From the human T2T-CHM13v2.0 reference genome, Homo sapiens, in the NCBI RefSeq assembly GCF_009914755.1, contig NC_060933.1: 64,000 nt of DNA; one strand, given 5' to 3'. The notes under the pieces were generated by a model that was not told where the DNA came from, searched no databases, and saw only the letters and a list, made by a program, of their open reading frames with translations. Below, one piece after another: positions 1,151 to 64,000 of this stretch; the first letter of the stretch is position 1; each line of letters begins with the position of its first letter. The position numbers and the translations under genes are program-made.

Positions 1151-1439
1151 CATTCCGTTCCATTCCATTCCATTCCATTCCTTTCCATTCCATTACATTC
1201 CATTTCGTTCCATTCCATTCTATTCCGTACGATTCCATTGCATTCCATTCCATTCCATTCCTTTGCATTCCATTGAAATCGAGTTGATTCCATTCCATTC
1301 CGTTCCATTCCATTCTATTCCATTCCATTCCGGATGATTCCATTCCACTGCATTCCATTCCATTAAATTCCCCTGCACTTGGGGTGATTCCTTTCCATTC
1401 TATTCTATTCCATTCCATTCCATTCCATTCCATTCCATT

Positions 1440-37415: not shown

Positions 37416-37432
37416 AATGGAATGGAATGGAA
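37391..37432. other. Inversion breakpoint / strand switch within the HSat3 array
   Basis: Sequence reads ...TTCCATTCCATTCCATT-GCACACGG-AATGGAATGGAATGGAA... The + motif CATTGCACACGGGTTC is cut after GG (37414-37415), and that GG also serves as the start of GGAAT. No inserted foreign sequence. Confidence 0.95.
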
Positions 37433-38339: not shown

Positions 38340-39450
38340 ATTCAACCCGAGTGCAATAGAATGCAGTGGAATGGAATGGAATGGAATGGAAAGTACCCGA
38401 ATGGAATGGAATGTAATGGAGTGTAAGGGAATTAAAAAGAATCAATCCGAATGTAATGGAATGGAATTGAAAAGAAAGGAATGCAAAGGAATGGAACGGA
38501 ATGGAACGGAATGAAATGGAATGGCATAGAACGGAATGGAATCAACCCGAGCACAATGGAATGGAATGGAATGGAATGGAATGGATTCAACCCGAATGGA
38601 ATGGAAAGGAATGGAATAAACCCGAGTGAAATGGCATGGAAGGGAATGGAATGGAATGGAATGGTACGGAGTAGAATGGAATGGAACGAAATGGGATGGA
38701 ATGGAATGGAATGGAATGGAATGGAATGAACCCTTGAGCAATGGAATGGAATGGAATGGAATGGAATGGAATGGAAGGGAATGGAATGGAATGGAATGGA
38801 AGGGAATGGAATGGGTTCAATTCGAATGGAATGGAAAGGAATGGAATCAACCCGAGTGCAATGGCATGGAATGGAATGGAATGGAATGGAATGGATTCAA
38901 CCCGAATGGAATGGAAAGGAATGGAATAAACCCGAGTGGAATGGCATGGAATGGAGTGGAATGGAATGGAATGGAATGGAATGGAATGGAATGGAATTAA
39001 CCCTATTAGAATGGAATGGAATGCAATGGAATGGAATGGAATGGAATTGAATGGAAGGGAATGGAATGGAATGGAATGGAATGGAATGGAATGGAATGGA
39101 ATTAACACGAGTAGAATGGAATGGAATGGAATGGAATGGAATGGAATGGAATCAACTCGATTTCAATGGAATGGAATGGAATGGAATGGAATGGAATGGA
39201 AGGGAATGGAATGAAATTAACCCGAATAGAATGGAATGGAATGGAAAGGAATGGAATGGAATGGAATGGAATGGAATAGAATTGAATCCAACCGAGTGCA
39301 GTGGAATGGAATGCAATGGAATGGAATCATACGGAATGGAATGGAATGGAATGGAATGAAATGGAATGGAATGCAATGGAATGGAATGGAATCAACCCAA
39401 TTGCAATGGAATGGAGTGGAATGGAATGGAATGGAATGGAAACAACCCGA
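38340..39450 (-). repeat. Inverted copy of ~33,190-34,295
   Basis: GGCATAGA/TCTATGCC, TACGGAGTAG/CTACTCCGTA, AATCCAACCG/CGGTTGGATT and ATCATACGG/CCGTATGAT occur in mirrored order. Confidence 0.8.
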
Positions 39451-42400
39451 ATGGAATGGAATGTAATGGAGAGTAAGGGAATTGAATAGAATCAATACGA
39501 ATGTAATGGAATGGAATGGAACGGAATGGAATGCAATGGAATAGAATGGAATGCAATGGAATGGGATCAACCCGAGTGAAATGGAATGGAATCGAAAGGA
39601 ATGGAATGGAATGGAATGGTTTCAACCCGAATGGAATGGAAAGGAATGGAATCAACCCGAGTGGAATGGAATGGAATGGAATGAAATGGAATGGAATGGA
39701 ATGGGTTCAACTCGAATGGAAGGGAAAAGAATGGAATCAACCCGAGTGGAATGGCATGGAATGGAATGAATGGAATGGAATGGAATGGAATGGAATGGAA
39801 TGGATTCAACCCGAATGGAATGGAAGGGAATGGAATAAACCCGAGTGGAATGGCATGGAATGGAGTGGAATGGAATTGAATGGAAGGGAATGGTACGGAA
39901 TAGAATGGAATGGAACGAAATGGAATGGACTGGAATGGAATGGAATGGAATGAACCCGTGTGCAATTGAATGGAATCGAATGGAATGGAATGCAATGGAA
40001 TGGATTCAACTAGAATGGAATGGAAAGGAATGGAATCAACCCGAGTGGAATGGCATGGCATGAAATGGAATGGAATGGAATGGAAAGGATTGGTACGGAA
40101 TAGAATGGAATGGAACGAAATGGAATGGAATGGAATGGAATGGAATGGAATGGAATGGAATAGAATGGAATCCACCCGATTGCAGGGGAATGGAATGGAA
40201 TGGAATGGAATGGAATGGAATGGATTCAACCCGAATGAAATGGAAAGGAATGGAATCAACCCGAGTGGATTGGCATGGAATGGAATGGAATGGAATGGAA
40301 TGGTAGGGAATAGAATGGAATGGAACGAAATGGAATGGAATGGAATGGAATGGAATGGAATGGAATCAACCTGAGTGCAATGGAACGGAGTGGAAGGGAA
40401 TGTAATGGAACGGAAACAACACGAATGGAATGGAATGTAATGGAGTGTAAGGGAATTCAATACAATCAATCCGAATGTAATGGAATGGAATGGAACGGAA
40501 TGGAATGGAATGCAATGGAATGGAATGGAATGGAATGGAATCAAACCGAGTGCAATGGAATGGAATGGAATGGAATGGAATGGAATGGAATGGATTCAAC
40601 CCGAATGGAATAGAAAGGAATGGAATAAACCCGAGTGGAATGGCATGGAATGGAATGGAATGGAATGGAATGGTACGGAATAGAATGGAATGGAACGAAA
40701 TGGAATGGAATGGAATGGAATGGAATGGAATGGAATGGAATGGAATCAACCTGAGTGCAATGGAATGGAATGGAATGGAATGGAATGGAATGGAAACAAC
40801 CCGAATGGAATGGAATGTAATGGAGTGTAAGGAATTGAATACAATCAATCCGAATGTAATGGAATGGAATGGAACGGAATGGAATGGAATGGAATGCAGT
40901 GGAATGGAATCAAACCTAGTGCAATGGAATGGAATGGAATGGAATGGAATGGAATGGATTGGATTCAACACAAATGGAATGGAAAACAATAGAATCAACC
41001 CGAGTGGAATGGCATGGAATGGAATGGAATGGAATGGAATGGAATGGTACGGAATAGAATGGAATGGAACGAAATGGAATGGAATGGAATGGAATGGAAC
41101 GGAATGGAATGGAATCAACTCGATTGCAATGGAATGTAATGGAATGCAATGGAATTAACGCGAATAGAATGGAATGGAATGGAATGGAACGGAATGGAAT
41201 GGAATGGGATGGAATGGAATCAATCTCAGTGCTGGGGGATGGAATGGAATGGAATGCAATGGAATGGAATGTAATGGAATGGAATGCAATGGAATGGAAT
41301 GGAATGGAATGGAATGAAATGGAATGGAATGGAATGGAATGGAATGCAATGCAATCAACTCGATTGCAATGGGATGGAATGGAATGGAATGGAATGGAAT
41401 GGAAGGGAATGGAATGGAATGGAATTAACCTGAACAGAATGGAATGGAACGGAATGGAATGGAATGGAATGGAATGGAATCAACCCGATTGCAAAGGAAT
41501 GGAGTGGAATGGAATGGAATGGAATGGAAACAACCCGAATGGAATGGAATGTAATGGAGTGTAAGGGAATTGAATAGAATCAATACGAATGTAATGGAAT
41601 GGAATGGAACGGAATGGAATGCAATGGAATGGAATGCAATGCAATGGAATGGGATCAACCCGAGTGTAATGGAATGGAATCGAAAGGAATGGAATGGAAT
41701 GGAATGGTTTCAACACGAATGGAATGGAAAGGAATGGAATCATCCCGAGTGGAATGGAATGGAATGGAATGGAATGGAATGGAATGGAATGGACCCGTGT
41801 GCAATGGAATGGAATCGAATGGAATGGAATGGAATGGAATGGATTCAAGTCGAATGGAATGGAAAGGAATGGAATCAACCCGAATGGAATGGCATGGAAT
41901 GGAATGGAATGAAATGGAATGGAATGGAATGGAATGGTACGGAATAGAACGGAATGAAACGAAATGGAATGGAATGGAATGGAATGGAAAGGAATGGAAT
42001 GGAATCAACCCGAGTGCAGGGGAATGGAATGGAATGGAAGGCAATGGAATGCAATCATCCGGAATTGAATGGAATGGAATGGAATGGAATGGAATCAACT
42101 CGATTGCAATGGAATGTAATGGAATGGAATGCAATGGAATTAACCCTAATAGAATGGAATGGAATGGAATGGAAGGGAATGGAATGGAATGGAATGGAAT
42201 GGAATGGAATGGAATGGAATTAACCGGAATAGAATGCAATGGAATGGAATGGAATGGAATGGAATGGAATGGAATGAAATGGAATCAACTCGATTTCACT
42301 GGAATGGAATGGAATGCAATGGAATGGAATGGAATGGAATGGAATGAAATTAACCCGAATAGAATGGAATGGAATGGAATGGAATGGAATGGAATGGAAT

Positions 42401-44224
42401 GGAATAGAGTGGAATGGAATGGAATGGAATAGAATGGAATCCACCCGAGTGCAGGGGAATGGAATGGAATGGTATGCAATGGAATGGAATCATACGGAAT
42501 GGAATGGAATTGAATGGAATGGAATCAACCCGATTGCAATGGAATGGAGTGGAATGGAATGGAATGGAATGGAAACAACCCGAATGGAATGGAATGGAAT
42601 GGAGTGTAAGGGAAGTGAATAGAATCAATACGAATGTAATGGAATGGAATGGAACGGAATGGAATGCAATTGAATGGAATGGAATCCAATGGAATGGGTT
42701 CAACCCGAGTGCAATGGAATGGAATCGAAAGTAATGGAATGGAATGGAATGGATTCAACAAGAATGGAATGGAAAGGAATGGAATCAACCCGAGTGGAAT
42801 GGAATTTAATGGAATGGAATGGAATGGAATGCAGTGAAATGAAATCAAACCTAGTGCAATGGAATGGAATGGAATGGAATGGAATGGAATGGAATGGATT
42901 AGATTCAACCCAAATGGAATGGAAAGCAATGGAATCAACCCGAGTGGAATGGCATGGAATGGAATGGAATGGAATGGAATGGAAAGGTACGGAATAGAAT
43001 GGAATGGAACGAAATGGAATGGAATGGAATGGAATGGAATGGAATGGAATGGAATGGAATGGAATAGAATGGAATCCACCCGATTGCAGGGGAATGGAAT
43101 GGAATGGAATGCAATGGAATGGAATGGAATGGATTCAACCCGAATGGAATGGAAAGGAAAGGAATAAACCCGAGTGAAATGGCATGGAAGGGAATGGAAT
43201 GGAATGCAATGCTACGGAGTAGAATGGAATGGAACGAAATGGAATGGAATGGAATGGAATGGAATGGAATGGAATTGGATGGAATGAACCCGTGAGCAAT
43301 GGAATGGAATGGAATGGAATGGAATGGAATGGAATGGAATGGGTTCAACTCGAATGGAATGGAAAGGAATGGAATCAACCCGAGTGGAATGGCATGGAAT
43401 GGAATGGAATGGAATGGAATGGAATGGAATGGATTCAACCCGAATGGAATGGATTCAACCCGAATGGAATGGAAAGGAATGGAATAAACCCGAGTGGAAT
43501 GGCATGGAATGGAGTGGAATGGAATGGAATGGAAGGGAATGGTACGGAATAGAATGGAATGGAACGAAATGGAATGGAATGGAATGGAATGGAATGGAAT
43601 GGAATGAACCCGTGTGCAATTGAATGGAATCGAATGGAATGGAATGCAATGGAATGGATTCAACTAGAATGGAATGGAAAGGAATGGAATCAACTCGAGT
43701 GGAATGGCATGGCATGGGATGGAATGGAATGGAATGGAATGGAATGGAAAGGTACGGAATAGAATGGAATGGAACGAAATGGAATGGAATGGAATGGAAT
43801 GAATGGAATGCAATGGAATAGAATGGAATCCACCCGATTGCAGGGGAATGGAATGGAACGGAATACAATGGAATGGAATGGAATGGAATGGATTCAACCC
43901 GAATGCAATGGAAAGGAATGGAATCAACCCGAGTGGAATGGCATGGAATGGAATGGAATGGAATGGAATGGAATGGTACGGAATAGAATGGAATGGAACG
44001 AAATGGAATGGAATGGAATGGAATGGAATGGAATGGAATGGAATCAACCTGAGTGCAATGGAATGGAGTGGAATGGAATGTAATGGAACGGAAACAACCC
44101 GAATGGAATGGAATGTAATGGAGTGTAAGGGAACTGAATACAATCAATCCGAATGTAATGGAATGGAATGGAACGGAATGGAATGGAATGGAATGGAATG
44201 GAATGGAATGGAATGGAATGAAAT

Positions 44225-45580
44225 GGAATGGCAGGGAATGGAATGGAATCAACCCGAGTGCAAAGTAATGGAATGGAATGGAATGGAATGGAATGGAATG
44301 GAATGGATTCAACCCGAATGGAATGGAAAGGAATGTAATAAACCTGAGTGGAATGGCATGGAATGGAATGGAATGGAATGGAATGGTACGGAATAGAATG
44401 GAATGGAACGAAATGGAATGGAATGGAATGGAATGGAATGGAATCAACCTGAGTGCAATGGAATGGAGTAGAATGGAAAGTAATGGAATGGAAACAACCC
44501 GAATGGAATGGAATGTAATGGAGTGTAAGGGAATTGAATACAATCAATCCGAATGTAATGGAATGGAATGGAACGGAATGGAATGGAATGGAATGCAGTG
44601 GAATGGAACCAAACCTAGTGCAATGGAATGGAATGGAATGGAATGGAATGGAATGGATTGGATTCAACCCAAATGGAATGGAAAGCAATGGAATCAACCC
44701 GAGTGGAATGGCATGGAATGGAATGGAATGGAATGGAATGGAATGGAATGGTACAGAATAAAATGGAATGGAACGAAATGGAATGGAATGGAATGGAATG
44801 GAACGGAATGGAATGGAATCAACTCGATTGCAATGGAATGGAATGGAATGGAATGGAATGGAATTAACGCGAATAGAATGGAATGGAATGTAATGGAACG
44901 GAATGGAATGGAATGGGATGGAATGGAATCAATCTGAGTGCAGGAGAATGGAATGGAATGGAATGCAATGGAATGGAATGGAATGGAATGGAATGCAATG
45001 GAATCAACTAGATTGCAATGGGATGGAATGGAATGGAATGGAATGGAAGGGAATGGAATGGAATGGAATTAACCTGAACAGAATGGAATGGAATGGAATG
45101 GAACGGAATGGAATGGAATGGAATGGAATGGAATGGAATGCAATGCAATGGGATCAACCCGAGTGCAGGGGAATGGAATGGAATGGAATGCAATGGAATG
45201 GAATCAATCAACCCGAGTGCAATAGAATGAAGTGGAATGGAATGGAATGGAATGGAAAGTACCCGAATGGAAAGGAATATAATGGAGTGTAAGGGAATTA
45301 AAAAGAATCAATCCGAATGTAATGGAATGGAATGGAACAGAATGGAATGGAATGGAATGGAATGGAATGGAATGGAATGAAATGGAATGGCATGGAATGG
45401 AATGGAATCAACCCGAGTTCAATGGATTGGAATCAAATGGAATGGAATGGAATGGAATGGATTCAACCCGAATGGAATGGAAAGGAATGGAATAAACCCG
45501 AGTGAAATGGCATGGAAGGGAATGGAATGGAATGGAATGGTAAGGAATAGAATGGAATGGAACGAAATGGAATGGAATGG
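44225..45580 (-). repeat. Inverted copy of ~35,200-36,515
   Basis: Rare variants match as reverse complements: GCAGGGAATG...GAGTGCAAAG, AAACCTGAGTGG, AACTAGATTGCAATGGGATGG, GTACCCGAATGGAAAGG, CCCGAGTTCAATGG and TAAGGAATAG. Confidence 0.8.
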
Positions 45581-48296
45581 AATGGAATGGAATGGAATGC
45601 AATGGAATGGAATGAACCCGTGAGCAATGGAATGGAATGGAATGGAATGGAATGGAATGGAAGGGAATGGAATGGGTTCAATTCGAATGGAATGGAAAGG
45701 AATGGAATCAACCCGAGTGCAATGGCATGGAATGGAATGGAATGGAATGGAATGGATTCAACCCGAATGGAATGGAAAGGAATGGAATAAACCCGAGTGG
45801 AATGGCATGGAATGGAGTGGAATGGAATGGAATGGAATGGAATGGAATGGAATGGAATTAACCCTAATAGAATGGAATGGAATGCAATGGAATGGAATGG
45901 AATGGAATTGAATGGAAGGGAATGGAATGGAATGGAATGGAATGGAATTAACACGAATAGAATGGAATGGAATGGAATGGAATGGAATGGAATGGAATCA
46001 ACTCGATTTCAGTGGAATGGAATGGAATGGAATGGAATGGAATGGAAGGGAATGGAATGAAATTAACCCGAATAGAATGGAATGGAATGGAATGGAATGG
46101 AATGGAATGGAATGGTATGGAATAGAATGGAATGGAACTAAATGGAATGGAATGGAATGGAATGGAATGAAATGAAATGAACCCGTGTGCAATGGAATGG
46201 AATGGAATGGAATGGAATGGATGGAATGGAAATTAATAGAACGGAATCAACACGAGTGGAATGGAATGGAAAGGACTGGAATGGAATGGAATGGAATGGA
46301 ATCAACTCGATTGTAATGGAATGGAATGGAATGGAATGGAATGGAATGGAATGGAATGGAATCAACCCGAATGCAGGGGAATGGAATGGAATGGAATGCA
46401 ATGGAATGGTATCATCCGGAATGGAATGGAATGGAATGGAATGCAAAGCAATGGAATCAACTCGATTGCAATGGAATGGAATGGAATGGAAAGGAATACA
46501 TTGGAATCAACCCGACTGGAATGGAATGGAAAGGACTGGAATGGAGTGGAATGGAATGGAATGGAATGGAATGGAATGAACTTGATTGGAATGGAATGGA
46601 ATGGAATGGAATGGAATGGAATGGAATTAACCCGAATAGAATGGAATGGAATGGAATGGAACGGAACGGAATGGAATGGAATGGAATGGAATGGAATGGA
46701 ATCAACCCGACTGCAGGGGAATGGAATGGAATGGAATGCAATGCAATGGATTCAACTTGAATGGAATGGAAAGAATGGAATCAACACGAGTGGAATGGCA
46801 TGGATTGGAATGGAATGGAATGGAATCAACCCGAGTACAGGGGAATGGAATGGAATGGAATGCAATGGAATGGAATCATCCGTAATGGAATGGAAAGGAA
46901 TGGAATGGAATGGAATGGAATGGAATGGAATGGAATGGAATGGAATCAACTCGATTGCAATCGAATGGAATGGAATGGAATTAACCCGAATAGAATGGAA
47001 TGGAATGGAATGGAACGGAACGGAATGGAATGGAATGGAATGGAATGGAATGGAATGGAATGGAATTAACACGAATACAATGCAATGGAATGGAATGGAA
47101 CGGAATGGAGTGGAATGGAATGGAATCAACCCGAGTGCAGGGGAATGGAATGGAATGGAATGCAATGGAAGGGAATCATCCGGAATGGAATGGAATGGAA
47201 TGGAATGCAAAGCAATGGAATCAACTCGATTGCAATGGAATGGAATGGAATGGAAAGGAATACATTGGAATCAACCCGAGTGGAAAGGAATGGAAAGGAC
47301 TGGAATGGAGTGGAATGGAATGGAATGGAATGGAATGGAATGGAATGGAATGGAATTAACCCGAATAGAAAGGAATGGAATGGAATGGAACGGAACGGAA
47401 TGGAATGGAATGGAATGGAATGGAATGGAATGGAATGGAATCAACCCGACTGCAGGGGAATGGAATGGAATGGAATGCAATGGAATGGATTCAACTTGAA
47501 TGGAATGGTAAGAATGGAATCAACACGAGTGGAATGGCATGGATTGGAATGGAATGGAATGGAATCAACCCGAGTACAGTGGAATGGAATGGAATGGAAT
47601 GCAATGGAATGGAATCATCCGTAATGGAATGGAAAGGAATGGAATGGAATGGAATGGAATGGAATGGAATGGAATCAACTCGATTGAAATCGAATGGAAT
47701 GGAATGGAGTTAACCCGAATAGAATGGAATGGAATGGAATGGAACGGAACGGAACGGAAGGGAACGGAATGGAATGGAATGGAATGGAATGGAATGGAAC
47801 GGAGAGGAATGGAATGGAATGGAATGGAATGGAATGGAATCAACGCGAGTGAAGGGGAATGGAATGGAATGGAATGCAATGGAATGGAATCTTCCGGAAT
47901 GGAATGGAATGGAATGGAATGGAATGGAATGGAATGGAATGGAATAAACCCGAGTGCAATGGAATGGAGTGGAATGGAATGGAATGGAATGGAACAACCC
48001 GAATGGAATGGAGTGTAATGGAGACTAAGGGAGTTGAATAGAATCTATCCGAATGTAATGGAATGCAATGGAACGGAATGGAAGTGAATGGAATGGAATG
48101 GAATGGAATGCAATGGAATGGAATCAACCCGAGTGCAATGGAATGGAGAGGAATGGAATGGAATGCCATGGAAACTACCCGAATGGAATGGAATGTAATG
48201 GAGTGTAAGGGAATTGAATAGAATCAATCCGAATGTAATGGAATGGAATGGAACGGAATGGAATGGAATGGAATGGAATGGAATGCAATGGAATGG

Positions 48297-48450
48297 AATC
48301 AACCCGAGTGCAATCGAATGGAATCGAATGGAATGGAATGCAATGGAATGGATTCAACTTGAATGGAATGGAAAGAATGGAATCAACACGAGTGGAATGG
48401 CATGGATTGGAATGGAATGGAATGGAATCAACCCGAGTACAGGGGAATGG
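48297..48450 (+). repeat. pHuR98-like ~155-bp SatIII segment (representative copy)
   Basis: AATCAACCCGAGTGCAATCGAATGGAATCG...GGATTCAACTTG...CAACACGAGTGG...CCCGAGTACAGG. Further copies at about 54425, 55288, 58468, 60170, 61827 and 62524. It resembles the chr9 SatIII probe/primer target as I recall it. Confidence 0.55.
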
Positions 48451-51400
48451 AATGGAATTTAATGCAATGGAATGGAATCATCCGTAATGGAATGGAAAGG
48501 AATGGAATGGAATGGAATGGAATGGAATGGAATCAACACGATTGCAATCGAATGGAATGGAATGGAATTAACCCGAATAGAATGGAATGGAATGGAATGG
48601 AAGAGAACGGAATGGAATGGAATGGAATGGAATGGAATGGAACGGAACGGAACGGAACGGAACGGAACGGAACGGAAAGGAATGGAATGGAATGGAATGG
48701 AATCAACGCGAGTGCAGGGGAATGGAATGGAATGGAATGCAATGGAATGGAATCTTCCGGAATGGAATGGAATGGAATGGAATGGAATGAAATGCAATGG
48801 ATTCAACTCGATTGCAATGGAATGGAATAGAATGGAATGGAATGGAATGGAATGGAATGGAATTACCCCGAATAGAATGGAATGGAATGGAATGGAACGG
48901 AACGGAACGGAACGGAATGGAATGGAATGGAATGGAATGGAATGGAATGCAATGGTATGGAATCGAATGGAATGGTACGGAATAGAATGGAATGGAAAGA
49001 ATTGTAATGGAATGGAATTGAATGGAATGGAATGGAATGGAATGGAATCAACGCGAGTGCAGGGGAATGTAATGGAACGGAATGCAATGGATTGGAATCA
49101 TCCGGAATGGAATGGAATGGAATTGAATGGAATGGAATGGAATCAACCCGAGTGCAATGGAATGCAGTGGAATGGAATGGAATGGAATGGAACAACCCGA
49201 ATGGAATGGAATGTAATGGAGAGTAAGGGAGTTGAATAGAATCAATCCGAATGTAATGGAATGGAATGCAACGGAGTGGAATGGAATGGAATGGAATGGA
49301 ATGGAATGGAATGCAAAGGAATGGAATCAACCCGAGTGCAATGGCATGGAATGGAATGCAATGGAATGGAAGTTAATGGAATCAACTCCAGTGGAAAGGA
49401 ATGGAATGGAATGGAAAGGAATGGAATGAAATCAAGTCGAGTGGAATGGAATGGAATGGAATGGATTGGAATAGATTGCAACGGAATGAAATGGAATGGA
49501 ATGGAATGGAATCAATCATTCCGAGTAGAATGGAAGGTAATGTAATGGAGTGGAAAGAAGGGAATGGAATCAACCCGATTGGAATGCAAGGCAATGGAAT
49601 GGAATGGAAAGGAATGGAATGCAATCAACTCGATTGCAATGGAATGGAACGGAATGGAATGGAATGGAAGGTAATGGAATCAACACGAGTGCAGGGGAAT
49701 GGAATGGAATGGAATGCAATGGAATGGAATCATCCGGAATGGAATGGAATGGAATGGAATCAACTCCATTGTAATGGAATGGAATGGAATGGAATGGAAT
49801 AGAATGGAATGGAATTAACCCGAATAGAACGGAATGCAATAGAATGGAATGGAACGGAACCGAATGGAGTGGAATGGAATGGAATGGAATCAACATGAGT
49901 GCAGGGGAATGGAATGGAATGGAATGCAATGGAATGGAATCATCCGGAATGGAATGGAATGGAATGGAATGGAATCAAACCGAGTGCAATGGAATCGTGT
50001 GAAATGGAATGGAATGGAATGGAAACAACCTGAATGGATTGGAATATAATGGAGTGCAAGGGAATTGAATAGAATCAATCTGAATGTAATGAAATGGAAT
50101 GGAACGGAATGGAATGGAATGGAATGGAATCGAATGGAATGGAATGGAATGGAATCAACCCGAGTGCAATGGAATGGATTCGAATGGAATGGAATGGAGT
50201 GGAATGGATTCAACTTGAATGGAATGGAAAGAATGGAATCAACACGAGTGGAATGGCATGGAATGGAATGGAAAGGAATGGCGTGGAATGGAATGGAATG
50301 GTTCGGAATAGAATGGATTGGAACAAAATGGAATGGAATGGAATGGAATGGAATGGAATGGAATCAACGCGATTGAAGGGGAATGTAATGGAACGGAATG
50401 CAATGGAATGGAATCATCCGGAGTGGAATGGAATGGAATGGAATGGAATGGAATGGAATCAACCCGAGTGCAATGGAATGGAGTGGAATGGAATGGAATG
50501 GAATGGAACAACCCGAATAGAATGGAATGTAATGGAGAGTAAGGGAGTTGAATAGAATCAATCCGAATGGAATGGAATGTAATTGAGAGTAAGGGAGTTG
50601 AATAGAATCAATCCGAATGTAATGGAATGGATAGGAACGGAATAGAATTGAATGGAATGGAATGGAATGCAATGGAATGGAATCAACCCGAGTACAATGG
50701 AATGAAATGGAATGGAATGGAATGGAATGGAATGGAATGGAATGGAATGGAACGGAATGGAACGGAACGGAATGGAATGGAATGGAATGGAATGGAATGG
50801 AATGGAATGGAACGGAAAGGAATGGAATGGAATGGAATGGAATGGAATGGAATCAACGCGAGTGCAGGGCAATGGAATGGAATGGAATGCAATGGAATGG
50901 AATCTTCCGGAATGGAATGGAATGGAATGGAATGGAATGGAATGGAATCAACCCGAGTGCAATGGAAAGGAGTGGAATGGAATGGAATGGAACAGCCCGA
51001 ATGGAATGGAATGTAATGGAGAGTAAGGGAGTTGAATAGAATCAATCCGAATGTAAAGGAATGGAATGGAACGGAATGGAATGGAATGGAATGGAATGGA
51101 ATGCAATGGAATGGAATCAACCCGAGTACAATGGAATGGAATGGAATGGAATGGAATGGAATGGAATGGAATGGAATGGAATGAAATGGAATCAATCCGA
51201 GTGCAATGGAATAGAGAGGAATGGAATGGAAAGGAATGGAAACTACCCGAATGGAATGGAATGTAATGGAGTGTAAGGGAATTGAATAGAATCAATCCGA
51301 ATGGAATGGAATGGAATGGAACGGAATGTAATGTAATGGAATGGAATGGAATCAACCCGAGTGCAGGGGAAACGAATGGAATGGAATGCAATGGAATGGA

Positions 51401-54400
51401 ATGGAATGGAATGGAATGGAATCAACTCGATTGCAATCGAATGGAAAGGAAGGGAATTAACCCGAATAGAATGGAATGGAATGGAATGGAACGGAACGGA
51501 ACGGAATGGAATGGAATGGAATGGAATGGAATGGAAAGTATTGGAATGGAATGCAATGGAAAGGAATGGAATGGAATGTAATGGAATGGAATGGAATGGA
51601 ATCAACGCGAGTGCAGGGGAATGGAATGGAATCGAATTTAATGGAATGGAATGGAATGGAATCAACCCGACTGTAGGGGAATGTAATGGAACTGAATGCA
51701 ATGGAATGGAATCATCCGGAATGGAATGGAATGGAATGGAATGGAATGGAATGGAATCAACCCAAGTACAGGGGAATGGAATGGAATGCAATGCAATGGA
51801 ATGGAATCATCCGTAATGGAATGGAAATGAATGGAATGGAAAGGAATGGAATGGAATGGAATGGAATGGAATGGAATGGAATCAACTCGATTGCAATCGA
51901 ATGGAATGGAATGGAATTAACCCGAATAGAATGGAATGGAATGGAATGGAACGGAACGGAATGGAATGGAATGGAATGGAATGGAATGGAACCGAACGGA
52001 ACGGAATGGAATGGAATGGAATCAACGCGAGTGCAGGGGAAAGGAATGGAATGGAATGCAATGGAAAGGAATCTTCCGGAATGGAATGGAATGGAATGGA
52101 ATGCAATGGATTCAACTCGATTGCAATGGTATGGAGTAGAATGGAATGGAATGAAATGGAATGGAATGGAATGGAATTAACCCGAATAGAATGGAATGGA
52201 ATGGAACGGAATGGAACGGAACGGAACGGAACGGAATGGAATGGAATGGAATGGAATGGAATTGAATGGAATGGAATGGTATGGAATGGAATGGAATGGA
52301 ATGGAGTCAACGCGAGTGCAGGGGAATGTAATGGAACGGAATGCAATGGAATGGAATCATCCGGAATGGAATGGAATGGAATGGAATGGAATGGAATGGA
52401 ATGGAATGGAATCAACCCGAGTGCAATGGAATGGAGTGGAATGGAATGGAATGGAATGGAACAACCCGAATGGAATGGAATGTAATGGAGAGTAAGGGAG
52501 TTGAATAGAATCAATCCGAATGTAATGGAATGGAAGGGAATGGAATGGAATGGAATGGAATGGAATGGAATGGAATGGAATGCAAAGGAATGGAATCAAC
52601 CCGAGTACAATGGAATGGAATGGAATGGAATGGAATGGAATGGAATGGAATGGAATGGAATGGAATCCACCCGAGGGCAATGGAATGGAGAGGAATGGAA
52701 TGGAATGGAATGGAAACTACCCGAATGGAATGGAATGTAATGGAGTGTAAGGGAATTGAATAGAATCAATCCGAATGGAACGGAATGGAATGGAACGGAA
52801 TGTAATGTAATGGAATGGAATGGAATCAACCCGAGTGCAGGGGAATGGAATGGAATGGAATGCAATGGAATGGAATCATCCGGAATGGAATGTAATGGAA
52901 TGCAATGGAATGGAATGGAATGGAATCAACCCGAGTGCAATGGAATGGAGTGAAATGGAATGGAATGGAATCGAATGGAAACAACCAGAATGGATTGGAA
53001 TATAATGGAGTGTAAGGGAATTGAATAGAATCAATCTGAATGTAATGAAATGGAATGGAACGGAATGGAATGCAATGGAATGGAATGGAATGGAATGGAA
53101 TGCAATGGAATGGAATCAACCCGAGTACAGGGGAATGGAATGGAATGGAATGCAATGGAATGGAATCATCCGTAATGGAATGGAAAGCAATGGAATGGAA
53201 TGGAATGGAATGGAATGGAATGGAATGGAATGGAATGGAATCAACTCGATTGCAATCGAATGGAATGGAATGGAATTAACCCGAATAGAATGGAATGGAA
53301 TGGAATGGAATGGAACGGAAAGGAATGGAATGGAACGGAATGGAATGGAATGGAATGGAACGGAACGGAATGGAATGGAATGGAATTGAATGGAATGGAA
53401 TGGAATCAACCCAACTGCAGGGGAATGGAATGGAATGGAATGCAATGGAATGGAATCATGCGGAACGGAATGCAATGGAATGGAATGGAATCAACACGAG
53501 TGCAATGGAATGGAGTGGAATGGAATGGAATGGAATGGAATGGAACTACCCGAATGGAATGGAATGTAATGGAGAGTAAGGGAGTTGAATAGAATCAAAC
53601 CGAATGTAATGGAAAGGAATGGAAAGGAATGGAATGGAATGGAATGGAATGCAATGGAATGGAATCAAACCGAGTACAATGGATTTGAATGGAATGGAAT
53701 GGAATGGAATGGAATGGAATCAACACGAGTGCAATGGAATGGAGTGGAATGGAATGGAATGGAATGGAACAACGCGAATGGAATGGAATGTAATGGAGAG
53801 TAAGGGAGTTGAATAGAAACAATCCGAATGTAATGGAATGGAACGGAATGGAATGGAAAGGAATGGAATGGAATGGAATGGAATGGAATGCAATGGAAGG
53901 GAATCAACCCGAGTACAATGGAATGGAATGGAATGGAATGGAATGGAATGGAATGGAATGGAAAGAATGGAATGGAATCAACCCGAGTGCAATGGAATGG
54001 AGAGGAATGGAATGGAATGGAATGGAAACTACCCGAATGGAATGGAATGTAATGGAGTGTAAGGGAATTGAATAGAATCAATCCAAATGGAATGGAATGG
54101 AATGGAACGGAATGTAAAGAATGGAATGGAATGGAATCAACGCGAGTGCAGGGGAATGGAATGGAATGGAATGCAACGGAATGGAATCATCCGGAATGGA
54201 ACGGAATGGAATGCAATGGAATGGAATGGAATGGAATCAACCCGAGTGCAATGGAATGGAGTGAAATGGAATGGAATGGAATGGAAACAACCAGAATGGA
54301 TTGGAATATAATGGAGTGTAAGTGAATTGAATAGAATCAATCTGAATGTAATAAAATGGAATGGAACGGAATGGAATGGAATGGAATGGAATAGAATGGA

Positions 54401-57400
54401 ATGGAATGGAATGCAATGGAATGGAATCAACCCGAGTGCAATCGAATGGAATCGAATGGAATGGAATGCAATGGAATGGATTCAACTTGAATGGAATGGA
54501 AAGAATGGAATCAACACGAGTGGAATGGCATGGATTGGAATGGAATGGAATGGAATCAACCCGAGTACAGGGGAATGGAATGGAATGGAATGCAATGGAA
54601 TGGAATCATCCGTAATGGAATGGAAAGGAATGCAGTGGAATGGAATGGAATGGAATGGAATCAACTCGATTGCAATCGAATGGAATGGAATGGAATTAAC
54701 CCGAATAGAATGGAATGGAATGGAATGGAACGGAACGGAATGGAATGGAATGGAATGGAATGGAATGCAACGGAACGGAACGGAATGGAATGGAATGGAA
54801 TGGAATGGAATGGAATGGAATGGAATCAACGCGAGTGCAGGGGAATGGAATGGAATGGAATGCAATGGAATGGAATCTTCCGGAATGGAATGGAATGGAA
54901 TGGAATGGAATGGAATGGAATGGAATCAACCCGAGTGCAATGGAATGGAGTGGAATGGAATGTAATGGAATGGAACAACCCGAATGGAATGGAATGTAAT
55001 GGAGAGTAAGGGAGTTGAATAGAATCAATCCGAATGGAATGGAATGGAATGGAACGGAATGGAATTGAATGGAATGGAATGGAATGCAATGGAATGGAAT
55101 CAACCCGAGTGCAATGGAATGGAGAGGAATGGAATGGAATGGAATGGAAACTACCCGAATGGAATGGAATGTAATGGAGTGTAAGGGAATTGAATAGAAT
55201 CAATCCGAATGTAATGGAATCGAATGGAACGGAATGGAATGGAATGGAATGGAATGGAATGGAATGGAATGGAATGCAATGGAATGGAATCAACCCGAGT
55301 GCAATCGAATGGAATCGAATGGAATGGAATACAATGGAATGGATTCAACTTGAATGGAATGGAAAGAATGCAATCAACACGAGTGGAATGGCATGGATTG
55401 GAATGGAATGGAATGGATCAACCCGAGTACAGGGGAATGGAATGGAATGGAATGCAATGGAATGGAATCATCCGTAATGGAATGGAAAGGAATGGAATGG
55501 AATGGAATGGAATGGAATGGAATGGAATGGAATCAACTCGATTGCAATCGAATGGAATGGAATGGAATTAACCCGAATAGAATGGAATGGAATGGAATGG
55601 AACGGAACGGAATGGAATGGAATGGAATGGAATGGAATGGAATGGAATGAACGCGAGTGCAGGGCAATTGAATGGAATGGAATGCAATGGAATGGAATCT
55701 TCCGGAATGGAATGGAATGGAATGGAATGGAATAGAATCAACTCGATTGCAATCGAATGGAATGGAATGGAATTAACCCGAATAGAATGGAATGGAATGG
55801 AATGGAACGGAACGTAATGGAATGGAATGGAATGGAATGGAATGGAATGGAACGGAACGGAATGGAATGGAATGGAATGGAATCAACGCGAGTGCAGGGG
55901 AATGGAATGGAATGGAATGCAATGGAATGGAATCTTCCGGAATGGAATGGAATGGAATGGAATGGAATGAAATGCAATGGGTTCAACTCGATTGCAATGG
56001 AATGGAACAGAATGGAATGGAATGGAATGGAATGGAATTAATTCGAATAGAATGGAATGGAATGGAATGGAACGGAATGGAACGGAATGGAATGTTATGG
56101 AATGGAATGGTATGGAATGGAATGGAATGGTACGGAATAGAATGGAATGGAAAGAATTGTAAGGGAATGGAATTGAATGGAATGGAATGGAATGGAATGG
56201 AATCAACGCGAGTGCAGCGGAATCTAATGGAACGGAATGCAATGGAATGGAATCATCCGCAATGGAATGGAATGGAATGGAATGGAATGGAATGGAATGG
56301 AATCAACCCGAGTGCAATGGAATGGAGTGGAATGGAATGGAATGGAACAACCCGAATGGAATGGAATGTAGTGGAGAGTAAGGGAGTAGAATAGAATCAA
56401 TCCGAATGTAATGGAATGGAATGCAACGGAATGGAATGGAATGGAATGGAATGGAATGCAATGGAATTGAATCAACCCGAGTACAATGGAATGGAATGGA
56501 ATGGAATGGAATGGAAGGGAATGGAATGGAATGGAATGATACGGAACAGAATGGAATGGAACGAAATGGAATGGAATGGAATGGAATGGAATCGTTCCGA
56601 GTGGAATAGGATGGAATGTATTCGAGTGGAATGGAAACGAATGGTATCAACCAGAGTGGAATGGAAGGGAATGGAATGGAATGGAAACTAATAGAATGGA
56701 ATCAACCCGAGTGGAATGGAATGGAAAGGACTGGAATGGAATGGAATGGAATGGAATCAACTCGATTGTAATGGAATGGAATGGAATGGAATGGAATGGA
56801 ATGGAATGGAATGGAATTAACCCGAATAAAATGGAATGGAATGGAATGGAACGGAATGGAGTGGAATGGAATGGAATCAACCCGAGTGCAGGGGAATGGA
56901 TTGGAATGGAATGCAATGGAATGGAATCTTCCGGAATGGAATGGAATGGAATGGAATGCAAAGCAATGGAATCAACTCGATTGCAATGGAATGGAATGGA
57001 ATGGAAAGGAGTACATTGGAATCAACCCGAGTGGAATGGAATGGAAAGGACTGGAATGGAGTGGAATGGAAAGGAATGGAATGGAATGGAATCAACTCGA
57101 CTGGAATGGAATGGAATGGAATGGAATGGAATTAACCCGAAGAAAATGGAATGGAATGGAATGGAACGGAACGGAATGGAATGGAATGGAATGGAATGGA
57201 ATGGAATGGAATCAACCCGACTGCAGGGGAATGGAATGGAATGGAAGGCAATGGAATGGATTCAACTTGCATGGAATGGAAATAATGGAATCAACACGAG
57301 TGGAATGGCATGGATTGGAATGGAATGGAATGGAATCAACCCGAGTACAGGGGAATGGAATGGAATGGAATGCAATGGAATGGAATCATCCGTAATGGAA

Positions 57401-59789
57401 TGGAAAGGAATGGAATGGAATGGAATGGAATGGAATGGAATGGAATGGAATCAACTCGTTTGCAATCGAATGGAATGGAATGGAATTAACCCGAATAGAA
57501 TGGAATGGAATGGAATGGAATGGAACGGAACGGAATGGAACGGAACAGAGTGGAATGGAATGGAATGGAATTGTATGGAATGGAATGGCATGGTACGGAA
57601 TAGAATGGAATGGAAAGAATTGGAATGGAATGGAATCGAATGGAATGGAATGGAATGGAATGGAATCAACCCGAGTGCAGGGGAATGTAATGGAAAGGAA
57701 TGCAATGGAATGGAATCATCCGGAATGGAATGGAATGGAATGGAATGGAATGGAATGGAATGGAATCAACCCGAGTGCAATGGAATGGAGTGGAATGGAA
57801 TGGAATGGAATGGAACAACCCGAATGGAATGGAATGTAATGGAGAGTAAGGGAGTTGAATAGAATCAATCAGAATGTAATGGAATGGAACGGAATGGAAT
57901 GGAATGGAATGGAATGGAATGGAATGGAATGGAATGCAATGGAATGGAATCAACCCGAGTACAATGGAACGGAATGGAATGGAATGTAGTGGAATGGAAT
58001 GGAATGGAATGGAATGGAATGGAATCAACCCGAGTGCAGGGGAATGGAGAGGAATGGAATGGAATGGAATGGAAACTACCCGAATGGAATGGAATGTAAT
58101 GGAGCGTAAGGGAATTGAATAGAATCAATCCGAATGGAATGGAATGGAATGGAACGGAATGTAATGGAATGGAATGGAATGGAATCAACCCGAGTGCAGA
58201 CGAATGGAATGGAATGGAATGCAATGGAATGGAATCATCCGGAATGGAATGGAATGGAATGCAATGGAGTAGAATGGAATGGAATCAACCCGAGTGCAAT
58301 GGAATGGAGTGAAATGGAATGGAATGGAATGGAAACAACAAGAATGGATTGGAATATAATGGAGTGTAAGGGAATTGAATAGAATCAAGCTGAATGTAAT
58401 GGAATGGAATGGAACGGAATGGAATGGAATGGAATGGAATGCAATGGAATGGAATGCAATGGAATGGAATCAACCCGAGTGCAATCGAATGGAATCGAAT
58501 GGAATGGAATGCAATGGAATGGATTCAAGTTGAATGGAATGGAAAGAATGGAATCAACACGAGTGGAAGGGCATGGATTGGAATGCAATGGAATGGAATC
58601 AACTCGAGTACAGGGGAATGGAACGGAATGGAATGCAATGGAATGGAATCATCCGTAATGGAATGGCAAGGAATGAAATGGAATGGAATGGAATGGAATG
58701 GATTGGAATGGAATGGAATCAACACGATTGCAATCGAATGGAATGGAATGGAATTAACCCGAATAGAATGGAATGGAATGGAATGGAACGGAACGGAATG
58801 GAATGGAATGGAATGGAATGGAATGGAATGGAACGGAACAGAAAGGAATGGAATGGAATGGAATGGAATGGAATGGAATGGAATGGAATGGAATGGAATC
58901 AACGCGAGTGCAGGGGAATGGCATGGAATGGAATACAATGGAATGGAATCTTCCGGAATGGAATGGAATGGAATGGAATGGAATGGAATGAAATGCAATG
59001 GATTCAACACGCTTGCAATGGAATGGAATAGAATGGAATGGAATGGAATGGAATGGGATTAACCCGAATAGAATGGAATGGAATGGAATGGAATGGAACG
59101 GACTGCAACGGAATGGAATGGAATGGAATGGAATGGAATGGAATGGAATGGAATGGTATGGAATGGAATGGAATGGTACGGAATAGAATGGAAAGGAACG
59201 AATTGTAATGGAATGGAATTGAATGGAATGGAATGGAATCAACGCGAGTGCAGGGGAATGTAATGGAATGGAATTGAATGGAATGGAATGGAATGGCATG
59301 GAATCAACGCGAGTGCAGGGGAATGTAATGGAACGGAATGCAATGGAATGGAATCATCCGGAATGGAATGGAATGGAATGGAATGGAATGGAATCAACCC
59401 GAGTGCAATGGAATGGAGTGGAATGGAATGGAATGGAATGGAACAACCCGAATGGAATGGAATGTAATGGAGAGTAAGGGAGTTGAATAGAATCAATCCG
59501 AATGTAATGGAATGCAATGCAACGGAATGGAATGGAATGGAATGGAATGGAATGGAATGGAATGGAATGGAATGCAAAGGAATGGAATCAACCCGAGTGG
59601 AATGGCGTGGAATGGAATGCAATGGATTGGAATGGAATGGAATCAACTCGAGTGGAAAGGAATGGAATGGAATGGAAAGGAATGGAATGAAGTCAACTCG
59701 AGTGGAATGGAATGGAATGGAATGGATTGGAATGGATTGCAATGGAATGAAATGGAATGGAATGGAATGGAATGGAATGGAATGGAATG

Positions 59790-62150
59790 GAATGGAATCA
59801 ACCCGAGTGCAATGGAATGCAGTGGAATGGAATGGAATGGAATGGAACAACCCGAATGGAATGGAATGTAATGGAGAGTAAGGGAGTTGAATAGAATCAA
59901 TCCGAATGTAATGGAATGGAATGGGAAGGAATCGAGTTGAATGGAATGGAATGGAATGCAATGGAATGGAATCAACCCGAGTGCAATGGAATGGAGAGGA
60001 ATGGAATGGAATGGAATGGAAACTACCCGAATGGAATGAAATGTAATGGAGTGTAAGGGAATTGAATAGAATCAATCCGAATGTAATGGAATGGAATGGA
60101 ACGGAACGGAATGGAATGGAATGGAATGGAATTGAATGGAATGGAATGGAATGGAATGCAAAGGAATGGAATCAACCCGAGTGCAATCGAATGGAATCGA
60201 ATGGAATGGAATGCAATGGAATGGATTCAACTTGAATGGAATGGAAAGAATGGAATCAACACGAGTGGAAGGGCATGGATTGGAATGCAATGGAATGGAA
60301 TCAACCTGAGTACAGGGGAATGGAATGGAATGGAATGCAATGGAATGGAATCATCCGTAATGGAATGGAAAGGAATGGAATGGAATGGAATGGAATGGAA
60401 TGGAATGGAATGGAATCAACTCGATTGCAATCGAATGGAATGGAATGGAATTAACCCAAATAGAATGGAATGGAATGGAATGGAACGGAACGGAATGGAA
60501 TGGAATGGAATCAACCCGAGTGCAGGGGAATGGAATGGAATGGAATGCAATGGAATGGAATCAACACGATTGCAATCGAATGGAATGGAATGGAATTAAC
60601 CCGAATAGAATGGAATGGAATGGAATGGTACGGAACGGAATGGAATGGAATGGAATCAACCCGAGTGCAGGGGAATGGAATGGAATGGAATGCAATGGAA
60701 TGGAATCATCCGGAATGGAATGGAATGCAAAGCAATGGAATCAACTCGATTGCAATGGAATGGAATGGAATGGAAAGGAATACATTGGAATCAACCCGAG
60801 TGGAATGGAATGGAAAGGACTGGAACGGAGTGGAATGTAATGGAATGGAATGGAATGGAATCAACTCGATTGGAATGGAATGGAATGGAATGGAATGGAA
60901 TGGAATGGAATGGAATTAACCCGAATAGAATGGAATGGAATGGAATGGAACGGAACGGAACGGAATGGAATGGAATGGAATGGAATGGAATGGAATCGAA
61001 TCAACCCGACTGCAGGGGAATGGAATGGAATGGAATGCAATGGAATGGATTCAACTTGAATGGAATGGAAAGAATGGAATCAACACGAGTGGAATGGCAT
61101 GGATTGGAATGGAATGGAATGGAATCAACCCGAGTACAGGGGAATGGAATGGAATGGAATGCAATGGAATGGAATCATCCGTAATGCAATGGAATGGAAT
61201 GGAATGGAATGGAATGGAATGGAATGGAATCAACTCGATTGCAGTCGAATGGAATGGAATGGAATTAACACGAATAGAATGGAATGGAATGGAATGGAAC
61301 GGAAAGGAATGGAATGGAATGGAATGGAATGGAATGGAATGGAATGGAATGGAATGGAATCAACGCGAGTGCAGGGGAATGGAATGGAATGGAATGCAAT
61401 GGAATGGAATCTTCCGGAATGGAATGGAATGGAATGGAATGGAATGGAATGGAATGGAATCAACCCGAGTGCAATGGAATGGAGTGGAATGGAATGGAAT
61501 GGAATGGAACAACCCGAATGGAATGGAATGTAATGGAGAGTAAGGGAGTTGAATAGAATCAATCCGAATGTAATGGAATGGAATGGAAAGGAATCGAGTT
61601 GAATGGAATGGAATGGAATGCAATGGAATGGAATCAACCCGAGTGCAATGGAATGGAGAGGAATGGAATGGAATGGAATGGAAACTACCCGAATGGAATG
61701 GAATGTAATGGAGTGTAAGGGAATTGAATAGAATCAATCCGAATGTAATGGAATGGAATGGAACGGAACGGAATGGAATGGAATGGAATGGAATGGAATG
61801 GAATGGAATGGAATGCAATGGAATGGAATCAACCCGAGTGCAATCGAATGGAATCGAATAGAATGGAATGCAATGGAATGGATTCAACTTGAATGGAATG
61901 GAAAGAATGGAATCAACACGAGTGGAAGGGCATGGATTGGAATGCAATGGAATGGAATCAACCTGAGTACAGGGGAATGGAATGGAATGGAATGCAATGG
62001 AATGGAATCATCCGTAATGGAATGGAAAGGAATGGAATGGAATGGAATGGAATGGAATGGAATGGAATGGAATGGAATCAACTCGATTGCAATCGAATGG
62101 AATGGAATGGAATTAACCCAAATAGAATGGAATGGAATGGAATGGAACGG
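59790..62150 (-). repeat. Direct duplication at ~1.66-kb offset (about 59,790-60,480 and 61,455-62,150)
   Basis: GGAATCGAGTTGAATGG ~59928/61590; GAGTGGAAGGGCATGG ~60263/61920; CAACCTGAGTACAGG 60302/61959; TTAACCCAAATAG 60451/62113. Confidence 0.85.
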
Positions 62151-64000
62151 AACGGAATGGAATGGAATGGAATGGAATGGAATGGAATGGAATGGAATGG
62201 AACGGAATGGAATGGAATGGAATGGAATGGAATGGAATGGAATCAACGCGAGTGCAGGGGAATGGAATGGAATGGAATGCAATGGAATGGAATCTTCCGG
62301 AATGGAATGGAATGGAATGGAATGGAATGGAATGGAATGGAATCAACTCGAGTGCAATGGAATGGAGTGGAATGGAATGGAATGGAATGGAACAACCCGA
62401 ATGGAATGGAATGTAATGGAGAGTAAGGGAGTTGAATAGAATCAATCCCAATGTAATGGAATGGAATGCAACGGAATGGAATGGAATGGAATGGAATGGA
62501 ATGGAATGGAATGCAATGGAATTGAATCACCCCGAGTGCAATCGAATGGAATCGAATGCAATGGAATGCAATGGAATGGATTCAACTTGAATGGAATGGA
62601 AAGAATGGAATCAACACGAGTGGAATGGCATGGATTGGAATGGAATGGAATGGAATCAACCCGAGTAAAGGGGAATGGAATGGAATGGAATGCAATGGAA
62701 TGGAATCATCCGTAATGGAATGGAAAGGAATGGAATGGAATGGAATGGAATGGAATGGAATGGAATCAACCCGAGTGCAGGGGAATGGAATGGAATGGAA
62801 TGCAATGGAATGGAATCATCCGGAATGGAATGGAATGGAATGGAATGCAAAGCAATGGAATCAACTCGATTGCAATGGAATGGAATGGAATGGAAAGGAA
62901 TACATTGGAATCAATCCGAGTGGAATGGAATGGAAAGGACTGGAATGGAGTGGAATGGAATGGAATGCAATGGAATGGAATGGAATGGAGTCAACTTGAT
63001 TGGAATGGAATGGAATGGAATGGAATGGAATGGAATGGAATCAACCCGACTGCAGGGGAATGGAATGGAATGGAATGCAATGGAATGGATTCAACTTGAA
63101 TGCAATGGAAAGAATGGAATCAACACGAGTGGAATGGCATGGATTGGAATGGAATGGAATGGAATCAACCCGAGTACAGGGGAATGGAATGGAATGGAAT
63201 GCAATGGAATGGAATCATCCGTAATGGAATGGAAAGGAATGGAATGGAATGGAATGGAATGGAATGGAATGGAATGGAATCAACTCGATTGCAATCGAAT
63301 GGAATGGAATGGAATTAACCCGAATAGAATGGAATGGAATGGAATGGAACGGAACGGAATGGAATGGAATGGAATGTAATGGAACGGAACGGAATGGAAT
63401 GGAATGGAATGGAATGCAATGGAATGGAATCAACGCGAGTGCAGGGGAATGGAATGGAATGGAATGAAATGGAATGGAATCTTCCGGAATCGAATGGAAT
63501 TGAATGGAATGGAATGGAATGGTATGGAATAAACCCGAGTGCAATGGAATGGAGTGGAATGGAATGGAATGGAATGGAACAACCCGAATGGAATGGAATG
63601 TAATGGAGACTAAGGGAGTTGAATAGAATCAATACAAATGTAATGGAATGGAAAGGAACGGAATGGAATTGAATGGAATGGAATGGAATGCAATGGAATG
63701 GAATCAACACGATTGCAATCGAATGGAATGGAATTGAATTAACCCGAATAGAATGGAATGGAATGGAACGGAACGGAACGGAATGGAATGGAATGGAATC
63801 AACCCGAGTGCAGGGGAATGGAATGGAATGGAATGCAATGGAATGGAATCATCCGGAATGGAATGGAATGGAATGGAATGCAAAGCAATGGAATCAACTC
63901 GATTGCAATGGAATGGAATGGAATGGAAAGGAATACATTGGAATCAACCCGAGTGGATTGGAATGGAAAGGACTGGAATGGAGTGGAATGTAATGTAATG

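What the first reader, a model, noticed from the sequence alone, without database searches (positions are those of the whole stretch)
47886..63490. Array of perfect HSF1 heat shock elements created by a single-base satellite variant, confined to one sub-domain
Seen: GGAATCTTCCGGAAT occurs 12 times (47886, 48749, 50899, 52068, 54872, 55694, 55929, 56923, 58945, 61406, 62289, 63476), about one per 1.4 kb, and I saw none in 1-46 kb. It reads GAA-tc-TTC-cg-GAA, an exact canonical trimeric HSE. It differs by one base from GGAATCATCCGGAAT (reverse complement ATTCCGGATGATTCC), which is common throughout both arms. Established: HSF1 binds chr9q12 SatIII on heat shock, drives G-rich SatIII lncRNA and nucleates nuclear stress bodies; plain GGAAT repeats give only head-to-tail GAA boxes. 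Inference: this variant could explain sub-array-specific HSF1 loading, making the A/B boundary a functional boundary.
Basis: partly seen in the sequence, partly recalled or inferred. Interest (0 to 1): 0.85.

Follow-up and report, generated by a model that had tools for sequence, protein, structure and literature searches.

The report
Heat-shock sites in chromosome 9 satellite
A one-letter variant of the chromosome 9 satellite repeat spells a textbook heat-shock-factor binding site, 12 times in this window and 12,700 times in the genome, and likely gives the stress factor HSF1 its preferred landing sites on this array, an idea already partly published.

Summary
There are 12 exact GGAATCTTCCGGAAT copies at the stated places, each a continuous three-unit heat shock element (HSE), and none in 1-46 kb. 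The framing is reversed, however. The genome holds 12,700 copies, and every listed place lies in the chr9 HSat3 array (49.2-76.4 Mb). 16 of 20 array samples carry it. The HSE-free part of the window is the exception: an island around one strand-switch junction that recurs 80 times. 0 of 205 sampled sites fall within -20/+7 kb of these junctions (17.9 expected). The Y-chromosome array has different perfect HSEs; 30 kb from four other arrays has none. This fits 9q12 and Yq12 being the primary HSF1 targets. The core idea is published: HSF1 motifs occupy sub-regions of HSat3, and heat-shock ChIP-seq follows them (Franklin 2025). The sister ATC form is itself a one-mismatch HSE at a tolerant position, so the change likely upgrades a site rather than creates one. 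I tested no binding. Not found in print: the 15-mer, its count and the junction-linked islands.

The parts
47886..47900 (+). Perfect three-unit HSE 15-mer, copy 1
48749..48763 (+). HSE 15-mer, copy 2
50899..50913 (+). HSE 15-mer, copy 3
52068..52082 (+). HSE 15-mer, copy 4
54872..54886 (+). HSE 15-mer, copy 5
55694..55708 (+). HSE 15-mer, copy 6
55929..55943 (+). HSE 15-mer, copy 7
56923..56937 (+). HSE 15-mer, copy 8
58945..58959 (+). HSE 15-mer, copy 9
61406..61420 (+). HSE 15-mer, copy 10
62289..62303 (+). HSE 15-mer, copy 11
63476..63490 (+). HSE 15-mer, copy 12
46200..64000 (+). B-type HSat3 block, the majority type in array samples: 0.67 perfect and 1.24 one-mismatch HSEs per kb, plus many other B-specific words; left edge lies between 45.8 and 46.5 kb
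1001..46200 (.). A-type HSat3 island: 0 perfect HSEs in 45.2 kb, 0.8 one-mismatch HSEs per kb; spans the strand switch (about 36 kb left, 9 kb right)
37398..37425 (.). C-rich to G-rich strand-switch (inversion) junction; the exact 28-mer occurs 80 times in chr9:52.34-76.36 Mb
47172..63859 (+). 14 copies of the sister ATC 15-mer (one-mismatch HSE) interleaved with the TTC copies at the homologous module site

Best explanation
The 15-mer is a single-base variant of one HSat3 repeat module that spells a continuous three-unit heat shock element, is carried by most sampled stretches of the chr9 array, and likely serves as the preferred binding site of HSF1 trimers there. Shown: the register, the counts, the mosaic of HSE-rich blocks and HSE-free islands around a recurring junction. 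Inferred mechanism: in the G-rich pentamer frame the spacer pentamer already has the C at the place an inverted unit needs. The series CAACC, CATCC, CTTCC therefore gives two, one and zero mismatches. The last step likely arose in one module lineage and spread by array expansion and multi-megabase duplication. After heat shock, trimers would load most strongly on the roughly 13,500 perfect sites (about one per 1.5 kb in B blocks), helped by interleaved one-mismatch sites. This would seed nuclear stress bodies and SatIII transcription. The A/B edge is primarily a boundary between expansion lineages and is predicted to be a quantitative step in HSF1 occupancy, not an on/off border.
For: Exact HSE register, the only such matches in the window. 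12,700 genome copies. No listed place off chr9, and the two fully listed subsets are 12 of 12 and 45 of 45 on chr9. Sample density 4.45 per 10 kb implies 28.5 Mb (22.9-39.1) against an observed span of 27.3 Mb. Perfect HSEs per kb: chr9 B-like 0.65, Y-array 0.75, 0 in 30 kb of chr15, 22, 5, 20 satellite. About 4,480 copies of a different perfect HSE lie on contig 24. 9q12 and Yq12 are the reported primary targets (PMC7889540). ChIP-seq follows motif density in HSat3 (10.1101/2024.10.22.616524). [quoted passage not shown] Lineage origin: shared module context, linkage to an upstream variant 65 of 101 vs 35 of 187, lower diversity than the ATC form.
Against: No binding measured here. The ATC form is more common (20,563) and differs at pentamer position 7, reported as weakly constrained for Drosophila HSF (PMC3315474). 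HSF1 bound pHuR98 although its nGAAn layout was called non-canonical (PMC2173303), and DNA-binding domains were crystallised on head-to-tail SatIII repeats. All three units start with G rather than the A of the strict Drosophila consensus. Hybrids with chromosome 12 or 15 are reported to form stress bodies (PMC10505914), yet 15 kb of chr15 satellite had no perfect HSE. HT1080 cells skip chr9. The chromosome-level correlation has only two positive arrays. The direct chr9 samples cover only 49.1-54.4 Mb.
Confidence: 0.62

Rival explanations
1. The TTC base is only a lineage marker. HSF1 loads through the sum of degenerate sites (ATC form, CAACC spacers, plain repeats), which are chr9-enriched or general, so the A/B edge changes occupancy little.
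For: One-mismatch HSEs outnumber perfect ones about 2:1 in B blocks and are present in A (0.8 per kb). The ATC form also maps to chr9 (100 of 130 places listed, all chr9). Relaxed-middle HSEs were 33% of Drosophila sites. pHuR98 binding. TTC is one of many B-specific words.
Against: ChIP-seq is uneven and follows motif density. pHuR98 needed more than 12.5 ng HSF1 against more than 3 ng for an HSE. Arrays with one- and two-mismatch sites but no perfect ones are not primary targets.
Confidence: 0.22
2. Chromatin state, methylation of the CpG inside the element, cofactors or HSF1 level set the pattern, and sequence is only permissive.
For: HT1080 cells form foci on Y and not on chr9 unless HSF1 is overexpressed. 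Most predicted Drosophila HSEs stay unbound in vivo. Targeted SatIII methylation weakly raised HSF1 recruitment (PMC7318601). CG counts are higher in B (47-60 vs 33-49 per 2 kb).
Against: Recombinant HSF1 binds 9q12 on chromosome spreads, including those of HT1080. Motif density predicts ChIP signal.
Confidence: 0.1
3. On origin: the perfect HSE spread because it was selected, in chr9 and independently in the Y array.
For: Two arrays reached 0.65-0.75 perfect HSEs per kb with different sequences. One-base neighbours of the TTC form hit core positions 4 times and spacer positions 10 times (binomial p=0.03).
Against: The copies are not independent: only 3 against 5 distinct changes. Two spacer positions are a CpG. 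The pentamer frame makes an HSE one or two changes away. The allele is linked to unrelated markers. Stress bodies can form on either array.
Confidence: 0.12
4. The same change matters for another factor: it creates CCGGAAG on the opposite strand (ETS-like) and the palindrome TTCCGGAA.
For: 12 copies of each, none in 1-46.2 kb for the first. The ETS resemblance is recalled, not tested.
Against: [quoted passage not shown]
Confidence: 0.04

Closest known systems
HSF1-motif-rich sub-regions of HSat3 (Franklin et al., bioRxiv 10.1101/2024.10.22.616524, Fig. 2b)
   Same: HSF1 motifs lie in sub-regions of HSat3 arrays and heat-shock HSF1 ChIP-seq is enriched there; very probably the same sequence.
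   Different: The sections and passages read give no k-mer, count, chromosome census or link to inversion junctions. The figure image and supplements were not seen and may show more.
Perfect HSEs in the Yq12 SATIII repeat (Penin et al. 2021, PMC7889540)
   Same: Perfect HSEs interspersed in HSat3 at a primary stress-body site; similar density here (3 in 4 kb; paper reports four per 3,564 bp).
   Different: Different spacer bases and fixed places in a 3.5-kb unit; the chr9 form is one allele in an irregular module mosaic on both strands.
pHuR98 / 9q12 satellite III binding by HSF1 (Jolly et al. 2002, PMC2173303; Vourc'h review PMC9032817)
   Same: Same locus and factor; the review mentions putative HSEs at 9q12 as an unpublished observation.
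   Different: Jolly judged the nGAAn layout of pHuR98 non-canonical and proposed secondary structure; the full array does hold canonical elements.
HSP70 proximal promoter HSE (EMSA probe in PMC2173303)
   Same: First two pentamers match at 9 of 10 bases (GGAAT ATTCC against GGAAT CTTCC).
   Different: The satellite element has a perfect third unit, no known promoter and thousands of copies in heterochromatin.
HSat3B5 array of chr9 (Altemose 2014 PMC4022460; Altemose 2021 preprint 10.1101/2021.07.12.452052)
   Same: The window lies in this array; many inversion breakpoints are reported.
   Different: The passages read do not describe HSE content or one junction sequence recurring 80 times.

Membership tests
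Canonical (continuous) heat shock element | Three adjacent alternating nGAAn units | tested here: met
   GGAAT CTTCC GGAAT in 12 of 12 copies
Canonical (continuous) heat shock element | G kept in every unit | tested here: met
   Also met by the ATC form
Canonical (continuous) heat shock element | A at the first base of each unit (strict AGAAN consensus, Drosophila; a preference, not a requirement) | tested here: not met
   G in all three units; consensus. The human HSP70 probe also lacks it
Canonical (continuous) heat shock element | Four or more contiguous units for two cooperating trimers | tested here: not met
   Flanks are same-direction pentamers; only a gapped fifth unit is in register
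Canonical (continuous) heat shock element | Bound by HSF1 trimer and heat-inducible | not testable with these tools
   Only indirect published ChIP-seq at sub-region level
Human satellite 3 | Diverged (GGAAT)n with CAAC(C/A)CGAGT spacers | tested here: met
   About 110 pentamers per kb and 20-30 spacers per 8 kb; formula from PMC2241877
HSat3B5 subfamily | Predominant subfamily of the chr9 pericentromeric block | tested here: inconclusive
   Location fits (annotation); subfamily 24-mers were not scored

The most novel reading that the evidence does not exclude
The chr9 and Y satellite arrays independently acquired thousands of perfect HSEs, and this alone decides where primary nuclear stress bodies form. 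On chr9 the array is built from a repeated divergent unit: an HSE-free island around one amplified inversion junction, with HSE-rich arms on which G-rich transcription runs outward. HSE copy number per haplotype would then set stress-body strength between people.
Probability: 0.2. Interest if true: 0.75.

Novelty: new member of a known kind. Interest (0 to 1): 0.42.

Why it matters
Why HSF1 picks 9q12 and Yq12 among many GGAAT arrays has been open since 2002, when the cloned probe seemed to lack a canonical element. A pair of 15-mers that differ by one base, sit side by side in the same blocks and occur 12,700 and 20,563 times gives a mapping-free test on existing ChIP-seq reads. The 80 HSE-free islands supply internal negative controls for long-read mapping. 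The gain is resolution on a known phenomenon, not a new system.

Tried and rejected
Rejected 'rare variant confined to a sub-domain'. Rejected the strand switch as the A/B boundary: they lie about 9 kb apart. Rejected a simple mirror duplication about the junction: shared unique 31-mers fall on scattered diagonals. No dominant higher-order period in the B block. Selection on the HSE is not shown. Two comparison samples (L025 chr13, L029 chr21) were not GGAAT satellite and were dropped, leaving 6 of 8 non-chr9, non-Y samples. The flank-anchored pattern found only 1 of 3 Y-array HSEs, so genome counts for other arrays are lower bounds. A self-alignment by blastn timed out and was replaced by k-mer diagonals. 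The array beyond 54.4 Mb was not sampled as sequence; it is covered only by listed motif places. The pHuR98 sequence was not obtained, so whether it carries either form is unknown. No HSF1 weight matrix was available, so no affinity score was computed.

Full report
Observation. The window is HSat3 throughout, C-rich on + up to about 37.4 kb and G-rich after. GGAATCTTCCGGAAT occurs 12 times at exactly the stated places, on + only, with no match in 100 shuffles. These are the window's only GAAnnTTCnnGAA matches and its only two-unit inverted matches. The ATC form has 22 copies on - (912-32,708) and 14 on + (47,172-63,845) and none exact between, so it is not common throughout. A 12-mer classifier trained on window 2-34 kb and 48-64 kb flips sign at 46 kb, and diagnostic words place the edge between 45,789 and about 46,500. 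At homologous modules T occurs in 0 of 40 on the A side and 12 of 40 on the B side.

Anatomy. TTC and ATC copies sit at the same place in one module, about 40 bases after a CAAC(C/G)CGAGTGCAGG spacer. In the 20 chr9 samples plus the window, the upstream G variant accompanies 65 of 101 TTC but 35 of 187 ATC copies. TTC has 14 one-base neighbours against 101 exact copies; ATC has 170 against 187. This suggests that TTC is a younger lineage derived from ATC (inference; no outgroup). It is one of many B-specific words. The flanks are same-direction pentamers, so each site is a single three-unit element with a gapped extension.

Genome distribution. The genome holds 12,700 exact copies (6,460 forward, 6,240 reverse; reversed-pattern control 3) and 20,563 of ATC. 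Only 100 places are listed per search. The listings in both orientations start on contig 9. Subsets defined by one flanking base gave 12 of 12 and 45 of 45 on chr9, up to 76.42 Mb; two larger subsets listed 100 of 105 and 100 of 168 places, all chr9. Twenty 10-kb samples at even steps over 49.1-54.4 Mb had TTC in 16 of 20. Their mean of 4.45 per 10 kb would need 28.5 Mb (bootstrap 22.9-39.1) to give 12,700, against a span of 27.3 Mb. I infer that nearly all copies are in the chr9 array. The rest of the array was not sampled as sequence.

The HSE-free block is a repeated island. The 28-mer across the strand switch occurs 80 times in chr9:52.34-76.36 Mb (47 +, 33 -), and sample L019 holds the same junction. 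Of 205 subset TTC places in that span, 0 fall within -20/+7 kb of a junction, against 17.9 +/- 5.5 under circular shifts (0 of 2,000 shifts as low). 22 of 74 ATC subset places fall in -20..0 kb against 4.9 expected. The interval was set before the run but was guided by this window, and many places are duplicates from multi-megabase duplications, so the effective n is smaller. Two of the four HSE-free samples lie 1 and 7 kb from a junction. The other two (49.10 and 51.32 Mb) lie 1-3 Mb from any exact copy, so islands are not the only HSE-free sequence.

Other arrays. A flank-anchored pattern for any perfect HSE gave 18,044 matches. 4,507 have a second spacer unlike the chr9 form; of the first 100 listed, 7 are on chr9, 18 on other autosomes and 75 on contig 24. 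As the list runs by contig, about 4,480 lie on contig 24, one per 3.5 kb. I take contig 24 to be chrY from its length and period (recalled). The remaining 13,537 match the 13,842 predicted from the chr9 samples. Direct scans gave 0.65 perfect HSEs per kb in 16 B-like chr9 samples, 3 in 4 kb of the Y array, and 0 in 30 kb from contigs 15 (three samples), 22, 5 and 20, where 15.6 would be expected at the chr9 average. Two further samples were not satellite and were dropped. Scattered perfect HSEs exist elsewhere: a looser pattern gave 717 matches, and 99 of the first 100 lie at 127-142 Mb of contig 1 (HSat2 by recall). Fixed flanks miss other contexts, so 'few elsewhere' rests on small samples.

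Mechanism. [quoted passage not shown] The HSat3 spacer pentamer already supplies that guanine on the opposite strand, so two-, one- and zero-mismatch elements coexist: B blocks have 0.65 perfect, 1.34 one-mismatch and 2.25 two-mismatch sites per kb; the window's A block has 0, 0.8 and 1.97. The best reading is graded: TTC sites are likely the strongest and make B blocks HSF1-rich. Against a sharp effect, Drosophila HSF tolerates changes at positions 7-8 of a relaxed middle unit, which is where ATC differs (PMC3315474, passages). HSF1 also shifts pHuR98, whose layout the authors called non-canonical (PMC2173303, section 8). Hybrids with chromosome 12 or 15 form stress bodies (PMC10505914, passages), and HT1080 cells bypass chr9 (PMC7889540, discussion). 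The element holds a CpG, and targeted SatIII methylation weakly raised HSF1 recruitment (PMC7318601, passages). HSEs generally work in either orientation (general knowledge), so they do not explain the G-rich strand bias of transcripts (PMC2241877, passages).

What is known. Franklin et al. (10.1101/2024.10.22.616524; outline, sections 5 and 13, passages) state that HSF1 motifs are enriched in sub-regions of HSat3 and that heat-shock ChIP-seq is enriched there. Penin et al. report four perfect HSEs per Yq12 unit. A review cites putative HSEs at 9q12 as unpublished (PMC9032817, passages). Over 200 inversion breakpoints are reported for the chr9 array and beta-satellite arrays together (10.1101/2021.07.12.452052, passages); HSat3B5 is the chr9 subfamily (PMC4022460, passages). 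Passages of PMC13634412 and PMC13705371 showed no HSE mapping. Ten searches and the passages read did not show the chr9 15-mer, its count or the islands; none of them searched the 15-mer's letters. The library lacks most subscription papers, and the figure images and supplements of Franklin and Penin were not seen and may already hold per-array motif values.

Verdict. A real feature whose main functional idea is published. The added value is a precise one-base test and a map of HSE-free islands. Interest 0.42.

Noticed in passing
window 37,398-37,425; G000:C9:52.34-76.36 Mb: One strand-switch junction recurs as an exact 28-mer 80 times (median spacing 172 kb), so many of the array's strand switches are likely copies of one event rather than independent inversions. 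None was found in 49.1-52.3 Mb.
   Followed up: partly
G000:C9:53.1-54.6 vs 61.8-63.6 Mb; 55.4-60.7 vs 66.0-71.3 Mb: Motif hit lists repeat with near-constant offsets (about 8.7 and 10.6 Mb), pointing to multi-megabase duplications inside the array; the window's last HSE variant recurs at 62.10 Mb.
   Followed up: no
L017:6,935-6,982 and L018:4,858-4,905: The opposite (G-rich to C-rich) switches lie in B-type sequence and both centre on the CAAC(C/T)CG spacer, forming a short inverted repeat, which suggests breakage or fold-back at the spacer.
   Followed up: no
L021:1,234; 1,514; 2,535 (contig 24): Three different perfect HSEs in 4 kb of the Y-array repeat, none matching the chr9 form; the chr9 15-mers were absent from all 9 non-chr9 samples.
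   Followed up: partly
G000:C1:127-142 Mb: At least 99 perfect HSEs scattered in the chr1 pericentromeric satellite, a possible basis for secondary stress-body sites.
   Followed up: no
window 1-1,000: The first kilobase scores B-like and shares unique 31-mers with 56.6 kb, so the A island probably ends near the window's left edge, about 45 kb in all.
   Followed up: partly
L009 (G000:C9:51.316 Mb) and L001 (49.10 Mb): HSE-free samples far from the junction. L009 has the highest one-mismatch density seen (2.5 per kb), and ATC subset pairs 175 bp apart occur at both 49.20 and 51.35 Mb, which suggests a duplicated array-edge type.
   Followed up: no
window 46,872-63,225: A third allele of the module, with T in the third unit (14 copies, all in the B block), breaks that unit and has its own linked upstream variants.
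   Followed up: no
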